From the NCBI GenBank assembly GCA_031411135.1, contig JANOAN010000003.1:10614-74613 (forward strand): DNA of 64,000 nucleotides, given 5' to 3'. Of this stretch, positions 48,724 to 59,091 are shown one piece after another. Positions within the stretch are counted from its first letter, which is position 1, and each line of letters starts with the position of its first letter. Source of the DNA: a bacterium (GTDB lineage: Bacteria > Patescibacteriota > Minisyncoccia > Phycocordibacterales > CAIZLB01). The notes under the pieces were generated by a model, which was not told where the DNA came from, made no database searches, and worked only from the letters and a program-made list of their open reading frames with translations. The position numbers and the translations under genes were made by a program.

Positions 48724-48798
48724 GCTCTCGTCGTTCAATGGATAGGACGTAACTTTGCGGAAGTTATGATACAGGTTCGATTCCTGTCGAGAGCACCA
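48724..48798 (+). tRNA. tRNA-Arg (anticodon GCG) with encoded CCA
   Basis: Acceptor GCTCTCG/CGAGAGC, anticodon stem-loop TAACT-TTGCGGA-AGTTA, T-arm ACAGG-TTCGATT-CCTGT, and a 3' ACCA. Confidence 0.8.
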
Positions 48799-48870
48799 CT
48801 AAGGCCGATGCGGAGGCCTCATATTTCTCAACGTTTTTTCGTTGTTGAAATTGAGCACCCCGCTTGGAAT

Positions 48871-50268
48871 CTAACTTTTAGGAAGGATACCTTCTTTTTG
48901 CTGTTTTTGATTGGGCTGACTTACAGGAGGTGTGTCTTTCAACAGCTCATCTGATTCAGTCTTATCAACAGATATCTTTCCATCTTTCAAAATCAATTTG
49001 CTTTTCAGGTTTACTAAAACATGACGTTGTTCGTAAATGTTGCCATCTTTCAGGAGAAACTTCATATATTTTTTGATATCAATATCTCCTAATTCCTTAC
49101 TCTCAAATCCACCTGGATCACCGATGACATCTCTGTGAAAACGATACATTCGATTTACATCCATATCCATCTGTCCTCGTACGCCGAGTTCGTTAATGGA
49201 TAATTCATCAACTATCTCACAGAGTGATTTTATGAGATCCTCCTCACGGATATATGTCATAGGACAATGATGATCTTTTGTCCTTGAACAACCATAATAG
49301 ACGTATCTCATAATAGTTCCGTCTTTCAAAGCTTTAAACTTTTCTTCAGCAGTAACACTTGAACCACAGAGTCCGCATTTAATTAAATGTGTGTAAGCAA
49401 AATCTTTTTTGTAAATCCGTGTCGCTCGTTTTTTCTTCTTCATTTCTTCTCGCACTTTATCAAAAAGTTCCTTTGTGATGAGTGGTTTATGTACACCATG
49501 GTACCAATTACCGCTTTTCTTAGGGTACTCAAACATGCCGTAATAAAAAGTTCTAGTGAGAGCTAGTTGTACACCACTTAATGCAATATGTTTTCCGTTT
49601 GGTGATCTAAAGTCTAGTTCATCAGTAAGCCAATCTCGTATACGATGTTGACTCCAACCCTCGGACGCTTTTTCAAACATCATTTGGACTATGTGTGCTC
49701 GAACTGGATCTATCTTCACAATACCTCGATTACCTTTCTCTCCAACATTCGTGTATCCCAAAGGTGCAACCCCTGGCCACAACCCTTTTTCTACAAGAGT
49801 TCTCAAACCTCTTTTTACATTTATACCTTTAGTATCATTTTCAAGTTTTGCTTGTGATCCAAGAATCATGAGTAGAAATTTCTCGTTAGGTGAGTTAGAA
49901 AAGTTTTGATTATATGTCCTGATTTCTAAAAGTTGCTTACTATCCATAAGATCAATCAGTCTACCTAGATCACCTGCATTTCGGCTAAGTCTATCTGGAT
50001 GCCACGTAAGGATTGCATTGTATTTTCCAGCCTTTATCTCGTCGATCATTTTATTAAAAACTTCACGCTCACCAGAATTTTTAGCTGAGTGGGCTTCAGT
50101 TTTTACTGTCACTACTGAAAGATGATCTCGTTCGGCAAGTTTATTCATCTCACTTATCTGAGATTCAATTGACAAAGCTTGTCGTTCTTCGTCCTCGCTA
50201 GATTTTCTGGCGTAGAGGCAGTAGATGAGGGCTGGAGATGGCACTTCTTTTACAGCAGAGTTTTCCAT
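48871..50268 (-). CDS. large serine recombinase (resolvase/invertase N-domain + recombinase + zinc-ribbon)
   Basis: YARKSSEDE catalytic Ser region, PDRLSRN, a recombinase domain, and a Cys cluster (CGLCGS...YYGCSRTKDHHC). Confidence 0.85.
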   Translation of the reverse strand: MENSAVKEVPSPALIYCLYARKSSEDEERQALSIESQISEMNKLAERDHLSVVTVKTEAHSAKNSGEREVFNKMIDEIKAGKYNAILTWHPDRLSRNAGDLGRLIDLMDSKQLLEIRTYNQNFSNSPNEKFLLMILGSQAKLENDTKGINVKRGLRTLVEKGLWPGVAPLGYTNVGEKGNRGIVKIDPVRAHIVQMMFEKASEGWSQHRIRDWLTDELDFRSPNGKHIALSGVQLALTRTFYYGMFEYPKKSGNWYHGVHKPLITKELFDKVREEMKKKKRATRIYKKDFAYTHLIKCGLCGSSVTAEEKFKALKDGTIMRYVYYGCSRTKDHHCPMTYIREEDLIKSLCEIVDELSINELGVRGQMDMDVNRMYRFHRDVIGDPGGFESKELGDIDIKKYMKFLLKDGNIYEQRHVLVNLKSKLILKDGKISVDKTESDELLKDTPPVSQPNQKQQKEGILPKS

Positions 50269-50309: not shown

Positions 50310-51629
50310 TTATTCCATCATCAGCTTCTTATCCTTCAGCAATATTCTACTCTTAATACAACTTAGCACTTCTCGCTTCTGCAACATCGTCCCGTGCTGA
50401 AGCATATGCTTTGCAAATGTTTTGATTGATACGTCTTTGTGCTTCTTCGATTGCCCTAGATCCACCCCAAGCACTCCAGTCTGGAAAAGTGCATATCGTG
50501 CCACTTCTTCTTGAAGCTTCTGCTTCAGTTCTGATTTATCCATGCTCATCTTGTCTATTATCGGTAACATCTCTGATATCAATATATCCTCTTTCACTGA
50601 CTCGTTCGGACAGTCTCGATCCTTCAATTTGGTGCACCTGTAGTAGACATGAGCGTTGAAACCACCATCCTTCAATTCCTTGATCTTCTCCTCTGCTGTT
50701 ATGCCCGATTCGCAGTAGGCACAGTGGAGCATTCTGGTGAAGGCAAACTCTCTGCCGTAGGCTTTTTTCTTCTCAACCCTGATTTTGTCCTGCACCAGAT
50801 CGAAAAGTTCCTTGGTGATGATCGGTGTATGCTTGCCTGTATACCAGTCACCGCTTCCAACAGGATATTCAAACACTCCGTAGTAGAAGGTCAGCCTTAA
50901 TATTCGGTAGATATTACCTAATGTCATCGGCTTGTTGCCTCTTGTTACAAATTTCACATCTTTGAGCCACCTATATATCTTCCTACCAGAGTAGTTTTCA
51001 GTGGCTACTTTTTCAAATATTTCTTTTATGAGTGGTGCTCTTACGGGATCAACTTCCACCTGACACTTTTTATCCACATTTTTGCTGTTTAGGTATCCAG
51101 TTGGTGCTGTGCATGGCCAGAGTCCCATCTGGCATCTTGCCCTTAGGCCTCGCTTCACATTTACCACCTTATTGTCGTTCTCAAGCTTTGCCTGTGATCC
51201 TAGAATCATGAGCATAAATTTCTCATTCGGCGTGTTGCTGAACTTTTGTCCATAGGTGCGTATCTCATGAAGCTTCTTCTGATCCATCAAGTCTACGATT
51301 CTTCCAAGATCACCTGCGTTTCGTGCAATTCTATCAGGTGCCCACGTCAGTATTCCATTGAACTTACCCTGATTGATCTCATTCACGATTTCGTTGAACA
51401 CTGGTCGTTGCCCCGCTTCCTTGGCAGAATGCGACTCTTGTTTTCTTGCCACAATCTCTAATCCCTCATTAATCGCCATCTTCTCCATTTCCCGTATCTG
51501 GCTATCAATGGAGAGTACCTGCTTATCCTCCTGTTCTGTACTTTTCCTTGCGTAAAGCACGTATTTAACCCTTACAGGGATTGATATTTTGGCCTCCATC
51601 CCCACTGGCCTTTGTATTGTATGATCCAT
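50310..51629 (-). CDS. large serine recombinase, paralog of 48871..50268
   Basis: YARKSTEQE, PDRIARN, and a Cys cluster (CAYCES...YYRCTKLKDRDC). The start may be the second Met (MEAKIS, 51599), which aligns better with the paralog's N-terminus. Confidence 0.85.
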   Translation of the reverse strand: MDHTIQRPVGMEAKISIPVRVKYVLYARKSTEQEDKQVLSIDSQIREMEKMAINEGLEIVARKQESHSAKEAGQRPVFNEIVNEINQGKFNGILTWAPDRIARNAGDLGRIVDLMDQKKLHEIRTYGQKFSNTPNEKFMLMILGSQAKLENDNKVVNVKRGLRARCQMGLWPCTAPTGYLNSKNVDKKCQVEVDPVRAPLIKEIFEKVATENYSGRKIYRWLKDVKFVTRGNKPMTLGNIYRILRLTFYYGVFEYPVGSGDWYTGKHTPIITKELFDLVQDKIRVEKKKAYGREFAFTRMLHCAYCESGITAEEKIKELKDGGFNAHVYYRCTKLKDRDCPNESVKEDILISEMLPIIDKMSMDKSELKQKLQEEVARYALFQTGVLGVDLGQSKKHKDVSIKTFAKHMLQHGTMLQKREVLSCIKSRILLKDKKLMME

Positions 51630-51633
51630 ACCT

Positions 51634-51683
51634 ACATTGATGACAGAGACCCTCCGAGGAGTCTAGGAGGGGTCAGTTGGTAA
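51634..51683. repeat. 50-bp intergenic repeat, copy A
   Basis: ACATTGATGACAGAGACCCTCCGAGGAGTCTAGGAGGGGTCAGTTGGTAA. About 40 of 50 positions are identical to copy B by hand alignment, and the differences cluster in a central ~10 bp. Confidence 0.8.
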
Positions 51684-52022
51684 CTAATTTCGCTCAATCT
51701 CTGATTTTTTGCTCAATCCTTTCTCTTTAAAAAACCCGTCTATCATTTTTACGTTACCTTTCGCTCCAACGTGCCAGATGTTAACTTCGTTAACTGGAAT
51801 GATTTCTTTGTAATCGTAAATTGTTACCACTGTAGGCTTTTTATGTTTTGTTTTGAAAGACCATTCGACACGCACCTTTCCATCGCTAGATTTCCACCTT
51901 TCATCAGTAACTCTGTCGTTGGGTTTACCTAGACAACTGACAAGATGCTCGTATGAAGAAATGGTATATCCACTGAAACTTGAGCCGTTTATATCCTTTG
52001 GTTCTGCTTTGATGAATTTCAT
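51684..52022 (-). CDS. hypothetical protein
   Basis: A 112 aa ORF lying exactly between repeat copies A and B. No family recognised. Confidence 0.5.
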   Translation of the reverse strand: MKFIKAEPKDINGSSFSGYTISSYEHLVSCLGKPNDRVTDERWKSSDGKVRVEWSFKTKHKKPTVVTIYDYKEIIPVNEVNIWHVGAKGNVKMIDGFFKEKGLSKKSEIERN

Positions 52023-52082
52023 ATGTTTTTTGCTTGTTAATTCGGCCTACGTCAGAGTCACTTGTAGCGGGTTTTCACAAAC

Positions 52083-52132
52083 ACATTGATGACGCAGACC
52101 ACTTAGGAAGTCTAGGAGGGGTGAGTTGGTAA
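52083..52132. repeat. 50-bp intergenic repeat, copy B
   Basis: ACATTGATGACGCAGACCACTTAGGAAGTCTAGGAGGGGTGAGTTGGTAA. It follows a 21-nt module (52050..52070) that recurs at 57981..58000. Confidence 0.8.
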
Positions 52133-52149
52133 TTTTTAGCCTTAAAAAC

Positions 52150-52179
52150 TTAGTAAATAGGCAATTTTTATGGTATAAT
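52150..52179 (+). promoter_or_regulatory. promoter of the KAP NTPase gene (extended -10)
   Basis: TTAGTA, an 18 nt spacer, then TGgTATAAT. The -10 ends 9 nt before the ATG at 52189, which implies a leaderless or near-leaderless mRNA. Confidence 0.45.
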
Positions 52180-52188
52180 GTTGTCATC

Positions 52189-54897
52189 ATGTCAGAAGAC
52201 GAGCAAGATAAAATCAGCAAATGGGACACGCCTTCCAAGAAGGACATGTTCGGCCGTGAGCCGTTTGTAGATACGATAGTAAAAACAATCCAATCGTCTC
52301 AAGAAGGCTTTAACTTGGGTGTCTCTGCTCGATGGGGAGAAGGTAAATCATCAATCTTAGAACAGCTCCAGCCAAAACTAGAAGAGTTGAATTACAAAGT
52401 CTTAACTTTTTCTCCTTGGAAATATACACAGGACAATATATCAATTAAAAGAAAGTTTATAATCGATATCTACTCCCAACTTGGAGAGGATTATGATGAT
52501 ACTGAACTATACAGTTCAACAGAAAGTCAGAAAGAACTAAAAATTGATGCTTACGATAGTATATTTTTTAATAGACTCGGAATTTTTATTCGCTACGGCC
52601 TAACGGTATCTATTTTATTTTTGGCAGTTCTTTTTATTATAAAGTATTGGTTTGGATTTACAATAAATATTACACAGACTTTTTCCACCAATTTATTTAT
52701 TCCTATACTTGCAGCACTTTTACCCATTGTCACAAAAATTACAGAAGTGACGGTAAAACATACAACCCCAAAAATAGAATCTGCCGAGCAATTTGAAAAA
52801 AGATTTAATGACGTTATAAACGGAATAATGGGCACCCATAAATCGCCGGGGAAAATAATCATTTTTGTCGATGATCTTGATCGATGCAATCATGTTGAAG
52901 TTGAACAGATACTTACAGCTTTATTTACATTTTTCAACAATAAGCATTGTACTTATGTGATTACAGCTGATCACACTGTTATTCGAAGATATATAAGTAG
53001 TTTCTTAAAGCTAGAAAACGATCTTAAAGATGATGGAACGGTAGATATGAAAAAGACAGAAGAGACTAGACAAAAAGAGGCGACGGAATATTTAAAAAAG
53101 ATTTTTCAGATTAACTTTATTGTTCCAAGGATACCTAGTGATCTACTTGAACCTTGGATAAGTGACCTACTGAAGGCCAGTCCTGTTATTGAGTTCAAGA
53201 ACCATTACGCAAAAGATTATTTAGTAAACCTCATACTTAATAATTTTCAGGGCAATCCCAGAAAGATAAAGCACTTTATTCGAACTTTAGCATTCCAATT
53301 AGAAGCAATTAATGAAAAAATCCAATGTCTTGCGGATCAAAAGGTAGATGAGAGTAAAAACCTCAACAAGGTTAAGGATTCTCCAGAGCTTTTAGCAAAA
53401 ATACTCATTCTCCAAGATAGGTTCCCTAACTTTTACGAGAAGATCGTATTAGAGCCAAAGCTTTTACAAAGACGTGAAGCTGGCGAGATGGATGAAGACA
53501 AAGAATTACAGAACCTTCTTGCTCAAGAGCCAAAATTCTTTAATTCGCTGACTCGTAATTCTACTCTGAAGACTATCGACCCTTATTACTTCCTGTACTT
53601 CTCAGGATCGACTGGCTTCGTGGAAACTGCTGTAGTCGACCCAGCGGAGGTCAAGGCTCTTGCAAGAAGTGCAGACTTTGACGGACTCACAAAAATAATT
53701 CGAGGTTTGACCGATGAGCCGAGAAACATGCAAGTTGAACATATAAAGCTTGAATTTGATTCTCCACAAATACAACCACCTGAAAAAGTAAATATTGTAA
53801 GAAGTCTTTTCCATACAGTTACTTTAATAGAAGAACCCAGCCTCAGACTCCAAAAGCTTAAAGAAATTCTTGATAATAAGACAAAGTACAAGCTTGAATT
53901 TGCATCCTTGCAGTCGGTTGATTTTGGAAACTTTATAACTTTTGCAGATATTGATGTAATAAACAAACTTTTTGTAGGTACTCCTTTCACAGATATTGCA
54001 ATGCAGACTCAAATTCTTAGTGCATTTATAAGCAAGCAAGATGAAATAAAAAATGTTGATGTTCTAAAAAAGTTTATTCAAGTTATTGCCACTGGCATTT
54101 CTAAGAACGATGCCAATTCTCAATCTTATCTAATATTGGCAAAAAAGATAAGTGATAAAAACTTTCTTGATGCAGATACGCTTCAGAATAGTTTGATTGA
54201 AACATATAAAAAGGCTCCCGATCCTTTAAAACAGGAACTTTTTGATACATTGCTTGATATTAAACCAAAGTTATCTGCACCAAAGCAACAGGAATTTGAA
54301 GAGATAATTCTAGCTGTTATTGAAAAAGACCCTATCGCCGAAAGTCTTGCGATGATTGGCAATATTCCTGTGAAGATTAATAAATCTAAATTAAGTATGT
54401 CGAAAGTCACTTCAGTAGTGAACAAAAGAATTTCTAGTTCAACAGATGTTGAAATTGCTCAGCTTGCAAATATTATGCTTCATCAAGCTATAAAAGATGA
54501 GCTTGGTCCAGATAATACAGAGCTAACACTCATTACTCTGGTCGAATTACTTGATTCTAAGGATCAACCAACGATAGCACTCATAAGAGGACGCCTTCCT
54601 GAATTCATAACTCATTCGACTAATAAGTCAAAGTTGCTAGATCAAGTATTGAAATCTGTAGAAACTGGCCCCCTTACGGAAAGTGCTCAAACGATGGATA
54701 CCTTGAAGAGCATGGATGATTTCTGGAACACCAATCCTTTTTTAAAAAAGGAACTTGTATCTAAATTGAAAGCTTCTTTGAAATGGATCGTGGATAAGGA
54801 TATAAAAAGTTTAGTAACAAAAAGTTTGGGAGAACTCGATCCTCCTCCTGAGCCCAAGAAGAAAAAAGAGTCCACTGAGCCTGCACCAGATAAATAA
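52189..54897 (+). CDS. KAP-family P-loop NTPase
   Basis: Walker A ARWGEGKSS, then two hydrophobic helices inserted into the NTPase domain (LGIFIRYGLTVSILFLAVLFII, LFIPILAALLPIV), then Walker B IIIFVDDLDRC. This insertion is the defining KAP architecture. I moved the start to MSEDEQDK. Confidence 0.75.
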   Translation: MSEDEQDKISKWDTPSKKDMFGREPFVDTIVKTIQSSQEGFNLGVSARWGEGKSSILEQLQPKLEELNYKVLTFSPWKYTQDNISIKRKFIIDIYSQLGEDYDDTELYSSTESQKELKIDAYDSIFFNRLGIFIRYGLTVSILFLAVLFIIKYWFGFTINITQTFSTNLFIPILAALLPIVTKITEVTVKHTTPKIESAEQFEKRFNDVINGIMGTHKSPGKIIIFVDDLDRCNHVEVEQILTALFTFFNNKHCTYVITADHTVIRRYISSFLKLENDLKDDGTVDMKKTEETRQKEATEYLKKIFQINFIVPRIPSDLLEPWISDLLKASPVIEFKNHYAKDYLVNLILNNFQGNPRKIKHFIRTLAFQLEAINEKIQCLADQKVDESKNLNKVKDSPELLAKILILQDRFPNFYEKIVLEPKLLQRREAGEMDEDKELQNLLAQEPKFFNSLTRNSTLKTIDPYYFLYFSGSTGFVETAVVDPAEVKALARSADFDGLTKIIRGLTDEPRNMQVEHIKLEFDSPQIQPPEKVNIVRSLFHTVTLIEEPSLRLQKLKEILDNKTKYKLEFASLQSVDFGNFITFADIDVINKLFVGTPFTDIAMQTQILSAFISKQDEIKNVDVLKKFIQVIATGISKNDANSQSYLILAKKISDKNFLDADTLQNSLIETYKKAPDPLKQELFDTLLDIKPKLSAPKQQEFEEIILAVIEKDPIAESLAMIGNIPVKINKSKLSMSKVTSVVNKRISSSTDVEIAQLANIMLHQAIKDELGPDNTELTLITLVELLDSKDQPTIALIRGRLPEFITHSTNKSKLLDQVLKSVETGPLTESAQTMDTLKSMDDFWNTNPFLKKELVSKLKASLKWIVDKDIKSLVTKSLGELDPPPEPKKKKESTEPAPDK

Positions 54898-54956
54898 TCA
54901 AATGTTGGCAACCCATGCTTCGCAAGTCTATATTTTTAAGCTAAGATTCTTCTAAC

Positions 54957-55778
54957 ATGGCAAAGAAAATTTTGACTAACATAAAACAAAAACCTCACTT
55001 CTCTCACAGGGATTTTGTTCTGTATCTTGGCAATTCAACCGATATCCTCAATGAGCTTCCAGAAAATTCCATAGATATGATTTTTGCAGATCCTCCATAC
55101 ATGCTTTCAAACGGAGGATTCACTGTTCATGCAGGAAAGATGGTAAGTGTTGATAAAGGAGACTGGGACAAAAGCAAAGGATTTGATAGCGACTACTCAT
55201 TTCATAGAAAATGGCTAGAGGCCTGCTATCGAGTCCTCAAACCCCAAGGAACCATTTGGGTTAGTGGAACATATCATTCAATCTATCAATGTGGTCACGC
55301 TATTCAGTCTATCGGTTTTCATATTCTCAATGATATAAGTTGGTTCAAGCCGAACGCTTCGCCGAATTTAAGCTGTAGGTTTTTTACAGCCAGTCACGAG
55401 ACATTGCTCTGGGCTAGGAAACATAAAAAAGCAAAGCACACGTTCAATTATGAATTGATGAAAGGTGGAGAATGGTCTGAAGATTTTATTAAAAAACCAA
55501 ATCTACAGATGCGTTCTGTATGGGCAATTAATCCACCCAAAAAAGAAGAGAAAAAATTTACCAAGCATCCGACACAAAAACCACTTTCACTTCTAGAGAG
55601 GATTGTTCTCGCAAGTACAAACAAAGGAGATATAATCCTTGATCCTTTTACCGGTAGTTCCACAACAGGAATCGCTGCTAAAAAACACGGACGAAAGTTT
55701 ATCGGTATTGATACTGAGGAGAAATACTTAGCTCTTTCTCAAAAACGCTTTCAAGATTTAGTCGAGGCTGGTAATTGA
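54957..55778 (+). CDS. beta-class N6A/N4C DNA methyltransferase
   Basis: Motif IV IFADPPY lies near the N-terminus and motif I DPFTGSSTTG near the C-terminus, which is the beta permutation. Confidence 0.85.
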   Translation: MAKKILTNIKQKPHFSHRDFVLYLGNSTDILNELPENSIDMIFADPPYMLSNGGFTVHAGKMVSVDKGDWDKSKGFDSDYSFHRKWLEACYRVLKPQGTIWVSGTYHSIYQCGHAIQSIGFHILNDISWFKPNASPNLSCRFFTASHETLLWARKHKKAKHTFNYELMKGGEWSEDFIKKPNLQMRSVWAINPPKKEEKKFTKHPTQKPLSLLERIVLASTNKGDIILDPFTGSSTTGIAAKKHGRKFIGIDTEEKYLALSQKRFQDLVEAGN

Positions 55779-56616
55779 CTATTACTACTTCGGATATCTT
55801 TCCTCTCTTGTCAGATTTTGAATTAATCATTCGGCTAGCATATACAGGAATCTGCTTATAGCCAGAATATATTTCCTTAATGAATGGTGCACTAGAATTA
55901 CTAAGCATTACATATACGCCCTTTTTATCTAGCTCGATAAATAAATCTCTAAGCTTTATTTGATCATCCTTAGAGAAACTATCTTTACTATAACTTGTAA
56001 ATGATGATGTCTCTGATAAAGGATGGTACGGGGGGTCGAAGTATACAAAGTCTCCAGCCTTAGCATTTTTCACAGCATCAGCAAAGGATCCACTAGTAAT
56101 TTTTGTATGAGAAAGCATCTCAGATACAAGTTTTAGGTTTTCTTCGTCCACAATCTTTGGATTCGTATAGCTTCCCATAGGAACATTAAATCCACCCTTT
56201 GAGTTTTCTCTATAGACACCATTGAAGGCTGTCTTGTTTAGAAAAAGAAAGTATAGACTCTTTTTGAAATCGTCAGCAGGGAGTGAATTATACTTTTCTC
56301 TGATTGAGTAATAAAACTCTTTTCTTTCTTCTGTATTTTTTGATATAAAATCTTTCTCAATTTTTCTTAAAGACTTAATCAATTCGCCAACATTATCTTT
56401 GATGTTTTTATAGGTTTGAACTAGAGTCTTGTTCACATCGTTTATGTGAGCCTTCTTTGGATTCAATGCAAAGAATACCGCACCTCCACCGATAAACGGT
56501 TCAAAATACGAATTGTACTTTTGGGGAAAGAGAGCATCTAACTGTGTCAAAAGCTGGGTCTTACCCCCAACCCATTTAAGGAACGGCTTAGCTTTCTTAG
56601 AAATATCTATCTTCAT
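55699..56616 (-). CDS. Dam-family (alpha-class) DNA adenine methyltransferase
   Basis: LKWVGGKTQLL, motif I FEPFIGGGAVFF and motif IV YFDPPY, in alpha order. Its 3' end overlaps the convergent methyltransferase gene by 80 nt. Confidence 0.85.
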   Translation of the reverse strand: MKIDISKKAKPFLKWVGGKTQLLTQLDALFPQKYNSYFEPFIGGGAVFFALNPKKAHINDVNKTLVQTYKNIKDNVGELIKSLRKIEKDFISKNTEERKEFYYSIREKYNSLPADDFKKSLYFLFLNKTAFNGVYRENSKGGFNVPMGSYTNPKIVDEENLKLVSEMLSHTKITSGSFADAVKNAKAGDFVYFDPPYHPLSETSSFTSYSKDSFSKDDQIKLRDLFIELDKKGVYVMLSNSSAPFIKEIYSGYKQIPVYASRMINSKSDKRGKISEVVIVNYQPRLNLESVFEKELSISPQYQYR

Positions 56617-56696
56617 GTATTGATTTTATCATTTTTTGATACCGATTCCTATCTTTCATTGTTCTAAGCCCTATTTTGTGATTTAATTGCATTATT

Positions 56697-57230
56697 ATGA
56701 AAGTCGGAGGTATCGGAGGAACAAACACAAAGTCGGGGCTACACTTTGAAGGAAAGGTGGATTTTCTCGAGGCCCTCAAAATAGTAAAGGGCTATGAAAT
56801 AAAGGATGACGGGTCTATCCTTTTCGAAGGTAAGGTTGTAGCTCTCAATCTCCGAAAATACAAGCTCTACGAATTTCTAGAAAGTAAAGGTGTTAATCAC
56901 AAAGAAATACTTTCAAAACGTCTTCTCCCTGATGATGCTATCTTGGTACTCAACACGAATTCATTTTACGTAATTGAAATTAAATTCCAACAGGTTGCTG
57001 GTTCTGTGGACGAAAAATTGCAGACATGCCATTTCAAAAAGAGACAGTACGAAAAATTGATGAATTCACTCGGTGTAAAAGTGGAATATATCTACATCTT
57101 AAGTGACTGGTTCCAAGCTCCTGCGTACAAGGATGTTCTCGCTTACATTAAAGAGGTTGATTGCGATTATTTCTTCGAAGAAATAACTCTAAACCGTCTC
57201 GGGCTCCCATCTCCAACAGAGACTATCTAA
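56697..57230 (+). CDS. small PD-(D/E)XK nuclease-like protein, candidate restriction endonuclease
   Basis: LLPDDAILVLNTNSFYVIEIKFQQ gives PD...x13...E-I-K. Divergently paired with the Dam-like methyltransferase, 80 nt apart. Confidence 0.45.
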   Translation: MKVGGIGGTNTKSGLHFEGKVDFLEALKIVKGYEIKDDGSILFEGKVVALNLRKYKLYEFLESKGVNHKEILSKRLLPDDAILVLNTNSFYVIEIKFQQVAGSVDEKLQTCHFKKRQYEKLMNSLGVKVEYIYILSDWFQAPAYKDVLAYIKEVDCDYFFEEITLNRLGLPSPTETI

Positions 57231-57846
57231 ATCCTGGCATTGCTGATTGAAGTACTTCTGTATAGTGTTTCTTGTCGTCGATATAATCTCTAAGCGTAAG
57301 TAGTAGGTTTTTAAACATATAAGCCTCGGTATAAATCTTTTCATTCTTGCAGAAAAGTTCAATCATTATCGCAACGTAATCTAAAGACAGGGTGTAATCC
57401 TGCTCAATGTGTGCATACTTTTGTGTAATCTCATCAACGGTTTCAAGTTTATAGTTATTCCTATCTTCAACCGATGCGAAAGGCGTAGTTCTCTCATAAA
57501 AATCAATGTAGTACTGAACTATCTCTCGAACGTCTTTGCGATACTGAGGGATTTTCAGAAGAAGATCGACAACCCAAAATGTATGAGTCGGCGGTGTCAT
57601 TATTTTGTTCACTCCTGGCACGAGAATTTTTACTACGAAATCAATATCTGGTCTTGCACCTCTACTTCCTTGAAATAGACCAATCAAAGTTCCGTCTTTT
57701 GTGACATATGTCTTAAAAGCAGTTAGACGAGGTCTCAGTTGAGCGAGATTAGTTCCATCATAATATCTAGAGTTGTATTCGTGTGACATTACAGAAAGTA
57801 TAGCAAAAGCTAGGCTGTTGGTAACTAGAGCTTCGCAACCCTCCAT
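57223..57846 (-). CDS. hypothetical protein (last cargo gene of the cassette)
   Basis: A 207 aa ORF with no recognised family. It has a 285 nt upstream region carrying repeat module C. Confidence 0.45.
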   Translation of the reverse strand: MEGCEALVTNSLAFAILSVMSHEYNSRYYDGTNLAQLRPRLTAFKTYVTKDGTLIGLFQGSRGARPDIDFVVKILVPGVNKIMTPPTHTFWVVDLLLKIPQYRKDVREIVQYYIDFYERTTPFASVEDRNNYKLETVDEITQKYAHIEQDYTLSLDYVAIMIELFCKNEKIYTEAYMFKNLLLTLRDYIDDKKHYTEVLQSAMPGFR

Positions 57847-57951
57847 ATCTAAGCTAAGGTACAGACAGATACCTCAGTTTTTGGTATCATGGTAATCACA
57901 ACAAAGACCTAACCCCTAGAAAACCCTTAGTTTCCTAGGATATGGTCGTAA

Positions 57952-58131
57952 TAAAAACCGCTACAGTATAGAAGACTCCTCGTCAGAGTCACTGTAGCGG
58001 TCGCGTCTAGGAAACTGGATGTGGGTTGAGCCGAAAGGTTCGATCACAATGGCGAGGGGTCTTCTGTCTCAAGGCTCAAAACTCCTCGCCACTTATTATT
58101 AGTTAATAAGCTTAAACCGCTACAGTGGCTT
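57952..58131. promoter_or_regulatory. structured intergenic element with three mutually exclusive 11-nt pairing segments
   Basis: ACCGCTACAGT at 57957..57967 and again at 58116..58126, with its exact complement ACTGTAGCGGT at 57991..58001. Also an internal GAGCC-GAAA-GGUUC hairpin (58028..58041), GGCGAGG/CCUCGCC (58051..57 / 58084..90) and TTGAGCC/GGCTCAA (58026..32 / 58073..79). The strand of action is unresolved. Confidence 0.4.
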
Positions 58132-59091
58132 ATGAAAAATCAAATAAGGCGTATTCCGCCATCTGGCTACTTAATTGTAGTTCTGTTTCTAGTAACTTTA
58201 ATATTTCCAAAACACGCAAATGCAACATCAGGATCATGCTCATACCACGGAGGTGTCGCATGTAGTCTCAGGTCGGATTATGACGGCAGTGTAATTTGCA
58301 ACGACGGATGGAAAGATAGTTCAGTATCATTTTCAAATGCAGATGAGTGCAAAACATCCTTACCGTCATGCCCCTTACCTTCAGGTGCGAAATCTGATTG
58401 TGGCTCACTCCGTGCACAACTTGCACGAGGACAGTTGCTCGGCACTACGTTTGGAGACAATGAGCTAGCTCAGTGCGATGCTCAGAATACAACCTACGAT
58501 TCTGCCCAGTCTGCATATCAACAATGTCTTACTTCGCAGTCAGCAATACAATCTCAACAATTTAATAACTACGTGGATCAAAGTAAAACTCAAGATCAGG
58601 CTTTTAATCAGCAGATGCAGACCAAGTACGACGCATACTGTGTTTCATCACAAGGTGTAGGAAGTGTCTGGGTTGGCGAATTCGGTCCGAACGGATCATG
58701 TAAACCAACTAATTCTGATTTCTGGAAATCGTGTCAGGGAAAAATGGGTACAAATGCAACGTACGATAAATCTTCGGGGTATTGTACTTGTTATAGCGGA
58801 TACGTTGTAGATGGAGACAATCAATGTGTAACAGAAGTTCAGCCAAGCATCCAAACTCCAGATGTTCCACAGACACAACCTGTTGTCACTACTCCCATAC
58901 AAAAAGTAATTGCAGTAAAAAAGCCGATAACTAAACCGACCGTCGTTCCAGTCGTATCTGAACAATCTACTACAACCATAGCTCAACCCATTGTCACAGA
59001 TACTCCTACCGTCAAACCTATTGAAGATAAAAGCTGGTTTGGTTCACTGTTTGAAAAAATAGGAAGCTTCTTTACTAATCTATTCCACTAA
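58132..59091 (+). CDS. secreted cysteine-rich protein with a T/P/V-rich C-terminal linker
   Basis: Signal peptide (LIVVLFLVTLIFPKHANA), about 16 Cys in the mature N-terminal half, and a Q/S-rich middle. Confidence 0.6.
   Translation: MKNQIRRIPPSGYLIVVLFLVTLIFPKHANATSGSCSYHGGVACSLRSDYDGSVICNDGWKDSSVSFSNADECKTSLPSCPLPSGAKSDCGSLRAQLARGQLLGTTFGDNELAQCDAQNTTYDSAQSAYQQCLTSQSAIQSQQFNNYVDQSKTQDQAFNQQMQTKYDAYCVSSQGVGSVWVGEFGPNGSCKPTNSDFWKSCQGKMGTNATYDKSSGYCTCYSGYVVDGDNQCVTEVQPSIQTPDVPQTQPVVTTPIQKVIAVKKPITKPTVVPVVSEQSTTTIAQPIVTDTPTVKPIEDKSWFGSLFEKIGSFFTNLFH

What the first reader, a model, noticed from the sequence alone, without database searches (positions are those of the whole stretch)
52050..58012. 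A shared 21-nt module and a GTCTAGGA box bracket the KAP + R-M cassette
CGTCAGAGTCAC(T)TGTAGCGG occurs at 52050..52070 and again, minus one T, at 57981..58000, in the same orientation. Both are followed by GTCTAGGA (52110.. and 58005..). At the left site, the 50-bp repeat arm is inserted between them.

The interval between the two copies holds exactly the KAP NTPase, both methyltransferases, the PD-(D/E)XK gene and the 207 aa orphan, about 5.9 kb. In addition, the hairpin loop at 57974..57983 (AGACTCCTCG) is the reverse complement of the variable centre of repeat A (CGAGGAGTCT, 51654..51663).

Such shuffled, partly inverted modules at cassette borders are what nested or serial site-specific recombination leaves behind. 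On the minus strand, all three copies also lie upstream of minus-strand genes (recombinase 2, the 112 aa gene, the 207 aa gene). A shared regulatory leader is therefore an alternative reading.
Basis: partly seen in the sequence, partly recalled or inferred. Interest (0 to 1): 0.5.

Follow-up and report, generated by a model that had tools for sequence, protein, structure and literature searches.

The report
LOOT RNA and its recombinase-leader antisense copy
The two "border modules" are not recombination scars: one is the core of a known orphan RNA gene (LOOT). The other is an antisense copy of it in the leader of the neighbouring recombinase operon. The defence-gene cassette between them sits in a real insertion hot spot, but its junctions are a different 9-base repeat.

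Summary
The repeat is real: 20/21 nt, none expected by chance.

- **Right copy (57981-58000).** It is the loop end plus 3' strand of helix P2 of a full-length LOOT RNA (Rfam RF03000, 57906-58045, + strand, 52.7 bits). The same 20-mer is invariant in LOOT genes of many candidate-phyla-radiation (CPR) genomes.
- **Left copy (52050-52070).** It lies in the leader of the minus-strand 112-aa/rec2/rec1 operon, so that mRNA is antisense to LOOT. The predicted duplex is -41 kcal/mol, against -20 for P2 alone.
- **Independent support.** Locus L085 has a different P2 sequence, and its recombinase codons 4-9 carry the matching antisense copy (18/21).
- **GTCTAGGA.** At the two left sites it is the invariant motif of a recombinase-upstream element "X". 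Inside LOOT it falls in the variable helix P3 and is probably chance.
- **Cassette.** The cargo is a genuine cassette. Across about 25 loci, a large serine recombinase and LOOT face away from each other. Between them lies 0.14-7.5 kb of differing defence genes.
- **Junctions.** Empty sites have one GTTGGTAAC. Occupied sites have one copy at each cargo end. The window has four: 51676, 52125, 54904 and 57817.

Best reading: LOOT is a riboregulator that pairs with the recombinase-operon mRNA. This is inferred, not shown.

The parts
48724..48798 (+). tRNA-Arg(gcg). It is convergent with rec1 and ends 73 nt from the rec1 stop codon. It is the likely outer boundary of the recombinase-bearing island.
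   Evidence: Two Logan contigs that are 100% identical to the window break inside this tRNA. Related recombinases abut tRNA genes of other identities. No repeat of the tRNA 3' end was found.
48871..50268 (-). rec1, a large serine recombinase (465 aa).
   Evidence: It carries the Resolvase, Recombinase and Zn_ribbon_recom domains and matches PHROG integrase. A 92% ortholog sits in tandem with a rec2 ortholog in L029.
50310..51629 (-). rec2, a large serine recombinase (439 aa).
   Evidence: 496 relatives were found in metagenome contigs.
51634..51683 (-). X element, copy A. This is the conserved recombinase-upstream element. In mRNA sense it reads TTACCAAC...CCTAGACTC...TCTGTCATCAATGT and ends 4 nt before the rec2 ATG. 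It contains the first GTCTAGGA (51661-51668).
   Evidence: An alignment of 50 X elements shows a fixed motif CT(G/A)GACT-N13-TGCGTCAT and no consensus RNA fold.
51676..51684 (+). Core 9-mer GTTGGTAAC, junction 1, at the distal end of X copy A.
   Evidence: A core lies next to X in 28 of 50 loci, against 0.014 expected per locus.
51684..52022 (-). 112-aa gene of unknown function, first gene of the 112aa-rec2-rec1 array.
   Evidence: Only three homolog clusters exist, and each was found beside a recombinase (in L006 that is only a weak 40-residue match to the rec2 C-terminus). There is no Pfam, PADLOC or PHROG hit. The AlphaFold model is unusable, pLDDT 47.
52050..52070 (-). Left 21-nt module. 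In the minus-strand mRNA it reads CCGCUACAAGUGACUCUGACG. That is antisense to the LOOT P2 loop end plus 3' strand. It lies 28-48 nt upstream of the 112-aa ATG.
   Evidence: It is conserved in L003, L004 and L005, and lies within recombinase codons 5-12 in L014. The targeted test gives P<0.001. The duplex energy is -41.1 kcal/mol.
52083..52132 (-). X element, copy B. Together with the module it forms a pseudo-5' end of an L014-type recombinase gene, now driving the 112-aa gene. It contains the second GTCTAGGA (52110-52117).
   Evidence: by comparison with L014, L003 and L005.
52125..52133 (+). Core 9-mer GTTGGTAAT, junction 2, at the left end of the KAP cargo.
   Evidence: Homology with L003, which carries different cargo, ends here.
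52189..54897 (+). KAP-family P-loop NTPase (902 aa), cargo 1. An extended -10 box TGgTATAAT lies at 52171-52179, 9 nt before the ATG.
   Evidence: Pfam KAP_NTPase. PADLOC gives QatA- and PifA-like hits. Homologs sit beside recombinases again in L107, L109 and L112.
54903..54945 (+). Y-type element, copy C1. It holds the core GTTGGCAAC (54904-54912) followed by GCTTCGCAA...TAAGCTAAG. It marks junction 3, between the KAP and R-M cargoes, 12 nt before the methylase ATG.
   Evidence: The same unit precedes a protein gene without LOOT in L114.
54957..57846 (.). Cargo 2. It comprises an N6_N4 methylase (54957-55778, +), a D12 methylase (55699-56616, -), a weak PD-(D/E)XK protein (56697-57230, +) and a 207-aa ORF (57223-57846, -).
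   Evidence: The first codons of the 207-aa ORF overlap the conserved Y element, so its true start may be further in.
57816..57858 (+). Y element, copy C2. It holds the core GTTGGTAAC (57817-57825) followed by GCTTCGCAA...TAAGCTAAG. It marks junction 4, at the right end of the cargo and upstream of the LOOT promoter.
   Evidence: The Y box is present in 26 of 39 LOOT loci, and core plus Y in 19 of 39.
57882..57890 (+). Extended -10-like box TGgTATCAT, about 15 nt before the LOOT 5' end.
   Evidence: A TGnTAT(C/A/T)AT box stands at the same place in the other LOOT loci (read directly).
57906..58045 (+). LOOT RNA (RF03000), full length. Helices: P1 57906-57947, P2 57958-58000, P3 58002-58023 and P4 58024-58045. 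P3 contains the third GTCTAGGA.
   Evidence: 52.7 bits against a gathering score of 46.4, matching model positions 1-121. One search gives the alignment.
57981..58000 (+). Right 20-nt module. It is the 3' end of the P2 loop plus the P2 3' strand.
   Evidence: The identical 20-mer occurs in 13 full LOOTs of other genomes.
58052..58067 (+). Partner of a long-range helix (GCGAGGGGTCTTCTGT) that pairs with the 5' part of the P2 loop (57968-57983). It lies outside the Rfam model and forms the 5' side of a terminal hairpin, 58051-58090.
   Evidence: Most of 31 distinct LOOTs, with different sequences, form 12-16 contiguous base pairs here.
58117..58127 (+). Copy of the P2 5' strand (CCGCTACAGTG), 4 nt before the ATG of the downstream 319-aa gene (58132-59091).
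   Evidence: The copy covaries with P2 in seven sequence families. Pairing with the P2 3' strand gives -30.8 kcal/mol.

Best explanation
The window holds a backbone that recurs in CPR (Patescibacteria) genomes and in viral-sorted (IMG/VR) contigs. A large serine recombinase (LSR) gene and a LOOT RNA gene face away from each other. Between them lies a compact control region, X - GTTGGTAAC - Y.

**Cargo insertion (pattern shown, enzyme inferred).** Foreign DNA, mostly defence genes, is inserted at the 9-base core. The core then appears at both ends of the insert. In this window that has happened more than once, giving: X-core [112-aa gene] X-core [KAP] core-Y [R-M + 207 aa] core-Y LOOT.

**The two copies of the 21-nt module.**
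- They are not these junctions.
- The right copy is the 3' strand plus distal loop of LOOT helix P2.
- The left copy is a LOOT-cognate segment in the 5' leader of the recombinase operon. It descends from the first codons of an L014-type recombinase gene.
- LOOT is read rightward and the operon leftward, so the two RNAs are complementary over 20 bp with one bulge.

**Proposed mechanism (inferred).**
- LOOT is a structured riboregulator whose P2 3' strand is the effector.
- In cis, that strand can leave P2 and pair with a copy of the P2 5' strand placed 2-10 nt before the start codon of the downstream gene.
- In trans, it can pair with the 5' end of the recombinase-operon mRNA. The exposed loop nucleotides would serve as a toehold, and pairing would lower translation or stability.
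- A competing long-range helix, between the 5' part of the P2 loop and a segment after P4, would decide whether the P2 3' strand is free.
- The net effect would tie recombinase expression to LOOT expression or conformation.

**GTCTAGGA.** It is the invariant CT(A/G)GAC motif of the recombinase-upstream DNA element X at the two left sites. It is a chance match in the variable helix P3 of LOOT.

**Shown:** LOOT identity, the complementarity, its covariation in a second lineage, and the hot-spot architecture with empty and occupied sites.
**Inferred:** that both RNAs are made, that they pair in vivo, the direction of the effect, and that the LSR catalyses cargo insertion.
For: **LOOT identity**
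- Rfam gathering-level, full-length hit.
- The same 20-mer lies in 13 further full LOOTs from Saccharibacteria, Paceibacterota, Nomurabacteria and Parcubacteria and in 2 viral contigs.
- Ten divergent LOOTs next to LSRs were confirmed at 61-94 bits.

**Transcription direction**
- A conserved extended -10 box stands before LOOT.

**Antisense relation**
- The module is conserved in the leader in L003, L004 and L005 although the cargo differs.
- In L014 it lies in LSR codons 5-12.
- L085 has a different P2 (CGCGACGAAC / GTTCGTCGCG). Its LSR codons 4-9 match its own LOOT at 18 of 21 positions, P<0.001.
- Cognate duplexes are -41 to -43 kcal/mol. P2 alone is -18 to -20, and non-cognate pairs are -15 to -17.

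**Cis use of the same strand**
- The P2 5'-strand copy before the downstream ATG covaries with P2 in seven sequence families.

**Competing long-range helix**
- It has compensatory changes across 31 LOOTs.

**Hot spot**
- LOOT lies divergent from the LSR at 0.14-7.5 kb in about 25 loci. These are 13 of 43 metagenome loci with at least 3 kb of upstream sequence, 9 IMG/VR loci and 6 genome loci.
- L030 is an empty site with a single core. L055 has tandem cores. Occupied sites have a core at both ends.
- The core is part of X in 28 of 50 loci and part of Y in 19 of 39.
- Cargo elsewhere includes type I, type III and MmeI R-M systems, DruA/NurA/HerA, AAA_13 and SNF2 proteins.
- X has no consensus RNA fold but a fixed DNA motif.
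Against: - The antisense module was found in only two lineages: the window/L014/L003/L005 clade, and L085. Sixteen other loci with both an LSR and a LOOT show no match above shuffles. If pairing occurs, it is therefore not a general property of the system.
- In the window the module lies 28-48 nt upstream of the 112-aa start codon. That is too far for simple occlusion of the ribosome-binding site.
- The module could be a passive remnant of an L014-type recombinase 5' end.
- L003 and L005 carry one substitution that would create an A-C mismatch with the invariant LOOT sequence. Their own LOOT was not recovered.
- There are no expression data. Promoters were inferred from consensus only.
- The P2 3' strand is sequestered in a 10-bp stem.
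- L114 has a recombinase 95% identical to that of L085 but has neither LOOT nor the module. This fits co-dependence, but it also fits a young and unstable similarity.
- For the hot spot, no excised circle or strain-level polymorphism at these exact sites was seen. A 9-bp direct repeat is not the classical footprint of LSR recombination, which exchanges strands at a 2-bp overlap.
Confidence: 0.55

Rival explanations
1. The 21-nt copies are attachment-type sites or scars of site-specific recombination that inserted the 5.9-kb cassette. This would resemble the direct repeats around SCC elements.
For: - The two copies are direct repeats that bracket the cargo.
- Two tandem LSR genes lie next door.
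- SCC elements moved by CcrAB recombinases are bounded by att sites and form tandem arrays (PMC11470126).
Against: - The right copy lies inside an intact, conserved RNA helix. That helix is present whether or not cargo or an LSR is nearby.
- Homology breakpoints with other cargoes lie at the GTTGGYAAY cores, not at the modules.
- Empty sites (L030, L055, L087, L097) keep a complete LOOT.
- L014 and L085 carry the module inside the recombinase reading frame, outside the cargo.
- The recombinases would lie outside the bracketed unit.
Confidence: 0.07
2. Evolutionary relic. The left module is a non-functional leftover of a duplicated L014-type recombinase 5' end. That end acquired a LOOT-like stretch by ectopic recombination or gene conversion with the nearby LOOT gene. 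The complementarity has no regulatory role.
For: - Region B is homologous to X plus the first 16 or so codons of the L014 recombinase.
- The module is absent from most LSR-LOOT loci.
- L114 lacks it despite 95% protein identity to L085.
Against: - Two lineages with unrelated P2 sequences each match their own LOOT.
- The match always covers the same LOOT segment, the loop end plus the 3' strand.
- It always lies at the 5' end of the recombinase transcript.
- In L014 and L085 it has been kept in frame within coding sequence.
- In the window clade it survived a change of context from coding sequence to leader.
Confidence: 0.22
3. DNA-level operator. One sequence-specific DNA-binding protein, possibly the recombinase or the 112-aa protein, recognises the P2-arm sequence. 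It would bind at all four places: the module, both P2 arms and the pre-ATG copy. It would co-regulate the recombinase operon, LOOT and the downstream gene.
For: - There are four copies of a 10-11-bp word within 6.1 kb.
- All lie near the 5' ends of transcription units.
- X shows that this system uses conserved DNA motifs.
Against: - The word changes completely between lineages while remaining self-complementary within LOOT. That pattern is typical of RNA pairing. It is hard to reconcile with a protein whose relatives are 55-95% identical.
- The P2 arms are part of a curated RNA family with covariation (Rfam RF03000; PMC7657543).
Confidence: 0.08
4. Inversion switch. The left module (CACTTGTAGCGG) and the pre-ATG copy (CCGCTACAGTG) are inverted repeats. 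They would flank a 6.07-kb segment, 52059-58127, which the serine recombinases invert.
For: - The geometry fits inverted repeats.
- Serine recombinases can invert DNA between inverted sites (established knowledge).
- The relative order and orientation of LOOT, the LSR and the ParB-methylase/terminase genes varies among loci.
Against: - No locus shows the predicted inverted arrangement with X moved away from the recombinase. In L059, L102 and L072, X stays next to the recombinase.
- Most loci have the pre-ATG copy without any module.
Confidence: 0.04

Closest known systems
LOOT RNA motif (Rfam RF03000; found by Weinberg et al. 2017 and described in Rfam 14 as a metagenome-based RNA)
   Same: The window sequence 57906-58045 matches the whole model above the gathering score, with helices P1-P4.
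   Different: - Rfam files it as an sRNA gene, and none of the papers I could search assigns it a function.
- Here it shows a fixed genomic partner (an LSR) and a defence-cargo hot spot.
- It has a further long-range helix outside the model.
- It has a covarying copy of the P2 5' strand at the downstream start codon.
- In two lineages it has an antisense copy in the recombinase 5' region.
- I could not read the 2017 supplement, so some of this context may already be noted there.
SCC/SCCmec cassette arrays moved by the CcrAB large serine recombinases (PMC11470126)
   Same: - Two tandem LSR genes.
- Defence-rich cassettes arranged in series next to a conserved gene.
- Repeated short sites at the cassette borders.
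   Different: - The anchor here is not rlmH.
- The recombinases lie outside the cassettes.
- The repeated site is a 9-mer between two conserved promoter-proximal elements.
- No excision circles have been demonstrated.
- The host is a CPR bacterium.
- An RNA gene flanks the site.
Integron platform (intI - attI - cassettes)
   Same: The recombinase gene is divergent from, and directly next to, a single insertion point where unrelated cassettes accumulate in series.
   Different: - The enzyme is a serine recombinase, not a tyrosine recombinase.
- No attC-type hairpins were seen.
- The cassettes are large, contain several genes, and have their own promoters in both orientations.
Element-encoded antisense control of a recombinase or transposase mRNA, such as IS10 RNA-OUT / RNA-IN (established knowledge, not tested here)
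   Same: An RNA encoded by the element is complementary to the 5' end of the recombinase mRNA. A loop serves as the nucleation site.
   Different: - RNA-OUT overlaps its target gene, so it is cis-encoded.
- LOOT is encoded up to several kb away and matches through a separate copy.
- LOOT is a larger, multi-helix RNA that also seems to act on its own downstream gene.
Defence hot spots of temperate phages and satellites (P2/P4-type) and tRNA-linked integrative islands (established knowledge)
   Same: - Variable defence genes lie between conserved flanks next to the integrase.
- The recombinase abuts tRNA genes.
- In many related loci LOOT is followed by ParB-methylase, small-terminase and large-terminase genes.
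   Different: - Here the cargo ends coincide with a repeated 9-mer rather than with diffuse homology.
- No tRNA 3' repeat was found at a distal border.
- The window copy has no phage genes.

Membership tests
LOOT RNA (RF03000) | Covariance-model score at or above the curated gathering score over the full model | tested here: met
   52.7 bits against 46.4, model positions 1-121, E = 4.5e-7.
LOOT RNA (RF03000) | Helices supported by compensatory change among homologs | tested here: met
   P2 stems of 9-12 bp with more than 15 different sequences stand at the homologous position. P3 and P4 differ with pairing kept.
Large serine recombinase | N-terminal resolvase catalytic domain, plus recombinase domain, plus zinc-ribbon domain | tested here: met
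   Both rec1 and rec2 carry PF00239, PF07508 and PF13408. The rec2 zinc ribbon scores 23.4 bits, just under its cutoff of 25.3.
SCC-like cassette array | Integration at the 3' end of rlmH (orfX) | tested here: not met
   No rlmH is present. The flanks are tRNA-Arg and LOOT.
SCC-like cassette array | Cassettes bounded by repeated recombinase sites | tested here: inconclusive
   GTTGGYAAY stands at all four junctions and at cargo ends in other loci. Binding or cleavage by the LSR was not tested.
SCC-like cassette array | Excision and circularisation of cassettes | not testable with these tools
   This needs read-level data or PCR.
Integron | Tyrosine recombinase IntI | tested here: not met
   The recombinases belong to the serine family.
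Integron | attC-type imperfect inverted repeats at cassette ends | tested here: not met
   The repeat scan found no such hairpins at 52133, 54903 or 57816. The junction flanks are A/T-rich and not conserved.
Trans-acting antisense RNA and target pair | Extended complementarity to the 5' region of the target mRNA | tested here: met
   20 bp plus 1 bulge, -41.1 kcal/mol.
Trans-acting antisense RNA and target pair | Regulator and target change together across lineages | tested here: inconclusive
   This holds for two lineages, the window clade and L085, each at P<0.001. It is absent in 16 other loci.
Trans-acting antisense RNA and target pair | Both RNAs are expressed and pairing alters expression | not testable with these tools
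   No transcriptome data are available.
tRNA-integrated genomic island | Recombinase gene adjacent to a tRNA gene | tested here: met
   rec1 stops 73 nt from tRNA-Arg. Relatives abut the Leu, Gly and Thr tRNAs.
tRNA-integrated genomic island | Direct repeat of the tRNA 3' part at the far border | tested here: not met
   No second copy exists with up to 3 mismatches in the window. The far border may lie beyond 64000.
Guide-RNA recombinase (IS110 bridge RNA type) | RNA loops complementary to the DNA at the recombination junctions | tested here: not met
   The LOOT-like copies lie 55 nt and 300 nt away from the cargo junctions. The cores have no counterpart in LOOT.

The most novel reading that the evidence does not exclude
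LOOT is the dedicated RNA partner of a serine-recombinase cassette platform in CPR bacteria and their mobile elements. The platform would be an integron-like system: LSR - X - core - Y - LOOT. It would capture defence cassettes at a 9-base core. LOOT would sense a signal, switch conformation, and gate both recombinase synthesis and the adjacent operon. That would give a function to an orphan RNA family and describe a new kind of cassette-capture system.
Probability: 0.15. Interest if true: 0.85.

Novelty: new variant of a known kind. Interest (0 to 1): 0.62.

Why it matters
LOOT is a well-supported structured RNA for which I found no assigned function. These data give it three things:
- a fixed genomic partner, a large serine recombinase;
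- a setting, a defence-gene insertion hot spot in CPR genomes and viral-sorted contigs;
- a concrete, testable mechanism, in which the P2 3' strand pairs in cis with the downstream start region and in trans with the recombinase mRNA.

The X-core-Y site, with both empty and occupied states, is a candidate recombination site for a large family of uncharacterised serine recombinases. Such enzymes are sought after as genome-engineering tools. The site also offers a way to harvest new defence systems from organisms that cannot be cultured.

Tried and rejected
- **tRNA 3'-end repeat as the island border:** none found.
- **LOOT loop matching the centre of repeat A as an RNA contact:** rejected. X keeps AGACTCCTCGG in L030 while that locus's LOOT loop and partner are entirely different. 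The 10-mer in the loop is the 5' strand of an internal long-range helix.
- **X as a structured RNA leader:** RNAalifold finds no consensus pairs in 50 sequences.
- **X as a sigma-70 promoter:** the scan found nothing convincing. The fixed 7-10-nt spacing to the ATG suggests a leaderless start, but this is unproven.
- **Custom covariance model R1:** the automatic consensus had only 11 pairs and was useless. I switched to iterated nhmmer with Rfam confirmation.
- **Whole-length RNAduplex:** uninformative, because it returned giant interior loops. It was replaced by local duplexes.
- **112-aa protein:** the AlphaFold model has pLDDT 47, so no fold search was run. There are no Pfam, PADLOC or PHROG hits.
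- **Exact-protein look-ups of the 207-aa and 319-aa genes:** nothing on record.
- **Organism name:** the cluster look-up gave no accession. Context (DUF5667, and relatives in Paceibacterota and Parcubacteria) points to a CPR bacterium.
- **Literature:** no paper in the searchable library discusses LOOT function, and the 2017 supplement is not held.
- **L085 versus L114 divergence at the module:** 20 of 30 nt identical against 81% overall, which is not decisive.


Full report
**1. Observation.**
- The 21-nt word CGTCAGAGTCACTTGTAGCGG is at 52050-52070. Its 20-nt version, lacking one T, is at 57981-58000, on the same strand. No such match occurs in shuffled sequence.
- GTCTAGGA occurs three times, at 51661, 52110 and 58005. 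An 8-mer seen three times is unremarkable: 1.42 are expected, and 19% of shuffles give three or more. Two of the three belong to one 50-nt repeat, 51634-51683 and 52083-52132, 80% identical.
- The 10-mer and its reverse complement exist one base to the side of the stated coordinates, at 57973-57982 and 51655-51664.

**2. What the right copy is.**
- Rfam finds a full-length LOOT RNA (RF03000) at 57906-58045 on the + strand, 52.7 bits against a gathering score of 46.4.
- The module is the 3' end of the loop plus the 3' strand of helix P2 (57958-58000). The right-hand GTCTAGGA is the 5' strand of helix P3.
- A scan of one genome per species for the module returned 17 loci. Thirteen are full LOOTs above the gathering score, in Saccharibacteria, Paceibacterota, Nomurabacteria and Parcubacteria MAGs. 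Two viral contigs add two more.
- In these, P2 is invariant, but P3 and P4 change with pairing kept: GTCTGGGA, GTACCCGA, GTATCCGG and others. The GTCTAGGA match inside LOOT is therefore best read as chance.
- An extended -10-like box, TGgTATCAT at 57882-57890, stands before LOOT here and at the same place elsewhere.

**3. What the left copy is.**
- The 112-aa protein has only three homolog clusters. Two were recovered next to a clear rec2-like recombinase. The third, on a 603-nt contig, adjoins only a weak 40-residue match to the rec2 C-terminus.
- In L003, and in L004 and L005, both 50-nt elements and the module are conserved in the same places. The genes on the far side differ in L003, which has type I HsdM/HsdS instead of KAP. 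The module therefore belongs to the recombinase-side backbone, not to the cargo.
- In L014 the same module lies inside the recombinase reading frame, at codons 5-12 (MKIQKPLQVTPDEV).
- The window's region B (X copy B plus module) aligns with X plus the first 16 or so codons of that L014-type gene. It is a pseudo-5' end that now precedes the 112-aa gene.

**4. The 50-nt repeat (element X).**
- In mRNA sense it reads TTACCAAC...CT(A/G)GACT-N13-TGCGTCAT. It ends 7-10 nt before the recombinase ATG in every related locus examined.
- An alignment of 50 copies shows fixed-register sequence conservation and no consensus RNA structure. I therefore treat X as a DNA-level control or binding element.
- The GTCTAGGA box at 51661 and 52110 is its invariant motif read on the other strand.

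**5. Strand logic and covariation.**
- LOOT is read rightward and the 112-aa/rec2/rec1 array leftward. A direct DNA repeat therefore gives complementary RNAs.
- The local duplex is 20 bp with one bulge, at -41.1 kcal/mol. The P2 hairpin alone is -20.3.
- The decisive comparison is L085. Its LOOT, confirmed by Rfam at 67.1 bits, has an unrelated P2: 5' strand CGCGACGAAC and 3' strand GTTCGTCGCG.
- Its recombinase codons 4-9 read GCGACGAACGCTCTGG. That is antisense to the same part of its own LOOT, with 18 of 21 positions identical on the DNA (P<0.001 by shuffling).
- Cognate duplexes are -41 to -43 kcal/mol and swapped ones -15 to -17.
- Sixteen other recombinase-LOOT loci show nothing above chance. 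The link is real but confined to two lineages.

**6. LOOT does the same thing in cis.**
- A copy of the P2 5' strand lies 2-10 nt before the start codon of the gene after LOOT. In the window it is CCGCTACAGTG at 58117-58127, with the ATG at 58132.
- The copy changes with P2 in seven sequence families: CCGCTACAGT, CGCGACGAAC, CGCGACCAGC, CCTATCAAG (two variants), CGCAACGAAC and CCCGCTAGAG.
- The 5' part of the P2 loop forms a helix of 12-16 contiguous pairs with a segment after P4. In the window this is 57968-57983 with 58052-58067. It shows clear compensatory changes across 31 distinct LOOTs.
- This helix lies outside the Rfam model and is the minimum-energy fold of LOOT plus 25 nt downstream (57906-58070).
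- Together these features suggest a switch that frees or hides the P2 3' strand.

**7. The cassette and its real junctions.**
- Starting from LOOT, 7 of 14 genome loci have a rec1/rec2-like recombinase within 8 kb (one of them, L022, only a weak match), and in six of the seven it is divergent from LOOT.
- Starting from rec2, 13 of 43 metagenome loci with at least 3 kb of upstream sequence have a divergent LOOT at 0.16-7.5 kb. Nine more come from viral contigs.
- Where the two genes are adjacent, X abuts a LOOT-upstream element Y (GCTTCGCAA...TAAGCTA), and in L030 a single GTTGGTAAC lies between them. L055 has two tandem cores. L087 and L097 have none.
- Where cargo is present, a core stands at each end. 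Examples: L053 AGTTGGTAAG...TGTTGGCAAC, L089 AGTAGGTAAC...TGTTGATAAC, L065, L014 and L018.
- The core adjoins X in 28 of 50 loci, against 0.014 expected, and adjoins Y in 19 of 39 LOOT loci at 3-6 nt spacing.
- In the window the 9-mer, with at most one mismatch, occurs four times on the + strand between 51.6 and 57.9 kb. All four are intergenic: 51676, 52125, 54904 and 57817.
- These give the pattern X-core [112 aa] X-core [KAP] core-Y [R-M, 207 aa] core-Y LOOT.
- Homology with loci carrying other cargo stops exactly at 52125-52133 on the left and starts at 57816 on the right.
- Cargo elsewhere includes type I, type III and MmeI restriction systems, DruA/NurA/HerA, AAA_13 and SNF2/DUF2779 proteins, and ParB-methylases. 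The window's KAP protein hits the QatA and PifA models.

**8. Wider setting.**
- The recombinase 3' end abuts tRNA genes of different identity in different genomes: Arg-gcg here, Leu-taa in L029 (which has the same rec2+rec1 pair), Gly-tcc in L037 and Thr-tgt in L107.
- Two assembly contigs identical to the window break inside tRNA-Arg.
- In more than 30 related loci a ParB-methylase, small-terminase and large-terminase trio lies near LOOT or the recombinase. The backbone therefore probably derives from a temperate phage or satellite of CPR bacteria. The window copy has none of these genes.

**9. Verdict.**
The proposed role of the modules as recombination borders is not supported.
- The broader idea of serial cassette insertion is supported, but at other sites.
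- The most likely role of the module pair is an antisense link between LOOT and the recombinase operon. My confidence in the whole picture is about 0.55. It is higher for LOOT identity and for the hot-spot architecture, and about even for functional pairing.
- The closest known systems are SCC cassette arrays (PMC11470126), integrons and element-encoded antisense control of transposases. Defining features of each were tested, and several are not met.

Noticed in passing
window 57968-57983 with 58052-58067; also L089, L049, L030, L102, L059: LOOT has a long-range helix of 12-16 contiguous pairs between the 5' part of the P2 loop and a segment after P4. It lies outside the 121-position Rfam model. 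It shows compensatory changes across 31 distinct LOOTs and competes with the inner part of P2.
   Followed up: yes
window 58117-58127; L085, L082, L054, L077, L129, L150: A copy of the P2 5' strand sits 2-10 nt before the start codon of the gene downstream of LOOT. It covaries with P2 in seven sequence families. This suggests that LOOT is, at least in part, a cis-acting leader rather than only an sRNA.
   Followed up: yes
window 51676, 52125, 54904, 57817: The 9-mer GTTGGYAAY stands at every intergenic junction of the island, always on the + strand. It marks the cargo ends in many other loci. L030 has a single copy at an empty site, and L055 has tandem copies.
   Followed up: yes
window 48724-48871; L026, L029, L037, L107: The recombinase 3' end lies within 70-200 nt of a convergent tRNA gene whose identity differs between genomes (Arg, Leu, Gly, Thr). 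That is unusual for serine recombinases. No tRNA 3' repeat was found in the window.
   Followed up: partly
L007, L011, L012, L014, L015, L020, L055, L087, L097, L105 and others: A ParB-N6/N4 methylase, small-terminase-like HTH protein and large terminase occur as a trio near LOOT or the recombinase in more than 30 loci. The orientation relative to LOOT differs between LOOT subfamilies. The trio is absent from the window.
   Followed up: partly
window 52171-52191: The KAP gene starts at ATG 52189, only 9 nt after an extended -10 box (TGgTATAAT), so the mRNA looks leaderless. The ORF list's TTG start at 52126 is probably wrong.
   Followed up: partly
L107, L109-L111, L112-L113: KAP NTPase homologs (47-67% identical) in other CPR genomes again sit beside large serine recombinases, in three different arrangements. 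In L106 a copper-resistance cluster follows, as it does in the window at 59.5-63.6 kb.
   Followed up: partly
window 57816-57858 versus ORF 57223-57846: The first 10 or so codons of the 207-aa ORF overlap the conserved non-coding Y element. The real start may be the Met at residue 20.
   Followed up: no
window 52023-52082 (minus strand): Downstream of X copy B, the former recombinase start is now GTG AAA ACC CGC TAC AAG TGA. This 6-codon mini-ORF contains part of the module. It could be a leader peptide or merely decay.
   Followed up: no
L114 3130-3290: The Y element can precede a protein gene directly, without LOOT, as copy C1 does before the methylase in the window. Y therefore behaves as a portable unit at the start of cargo.
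   Followed up: partly
L055 8482-8756: A group I intron (RF00028, 69.3 bits) lies about 1 kb downstream of the recombinase in one related locus.
   Followed up: no
L009 (Oscillospiraceae MAG), L021 (Phycisphaerales MAG): The exact LOOT P2 20-mer also occurs in two non-CPR MAGs, without a LOOT hit at the gathering score. This could be contamination, transfer or a fragment.
   Followed up: no
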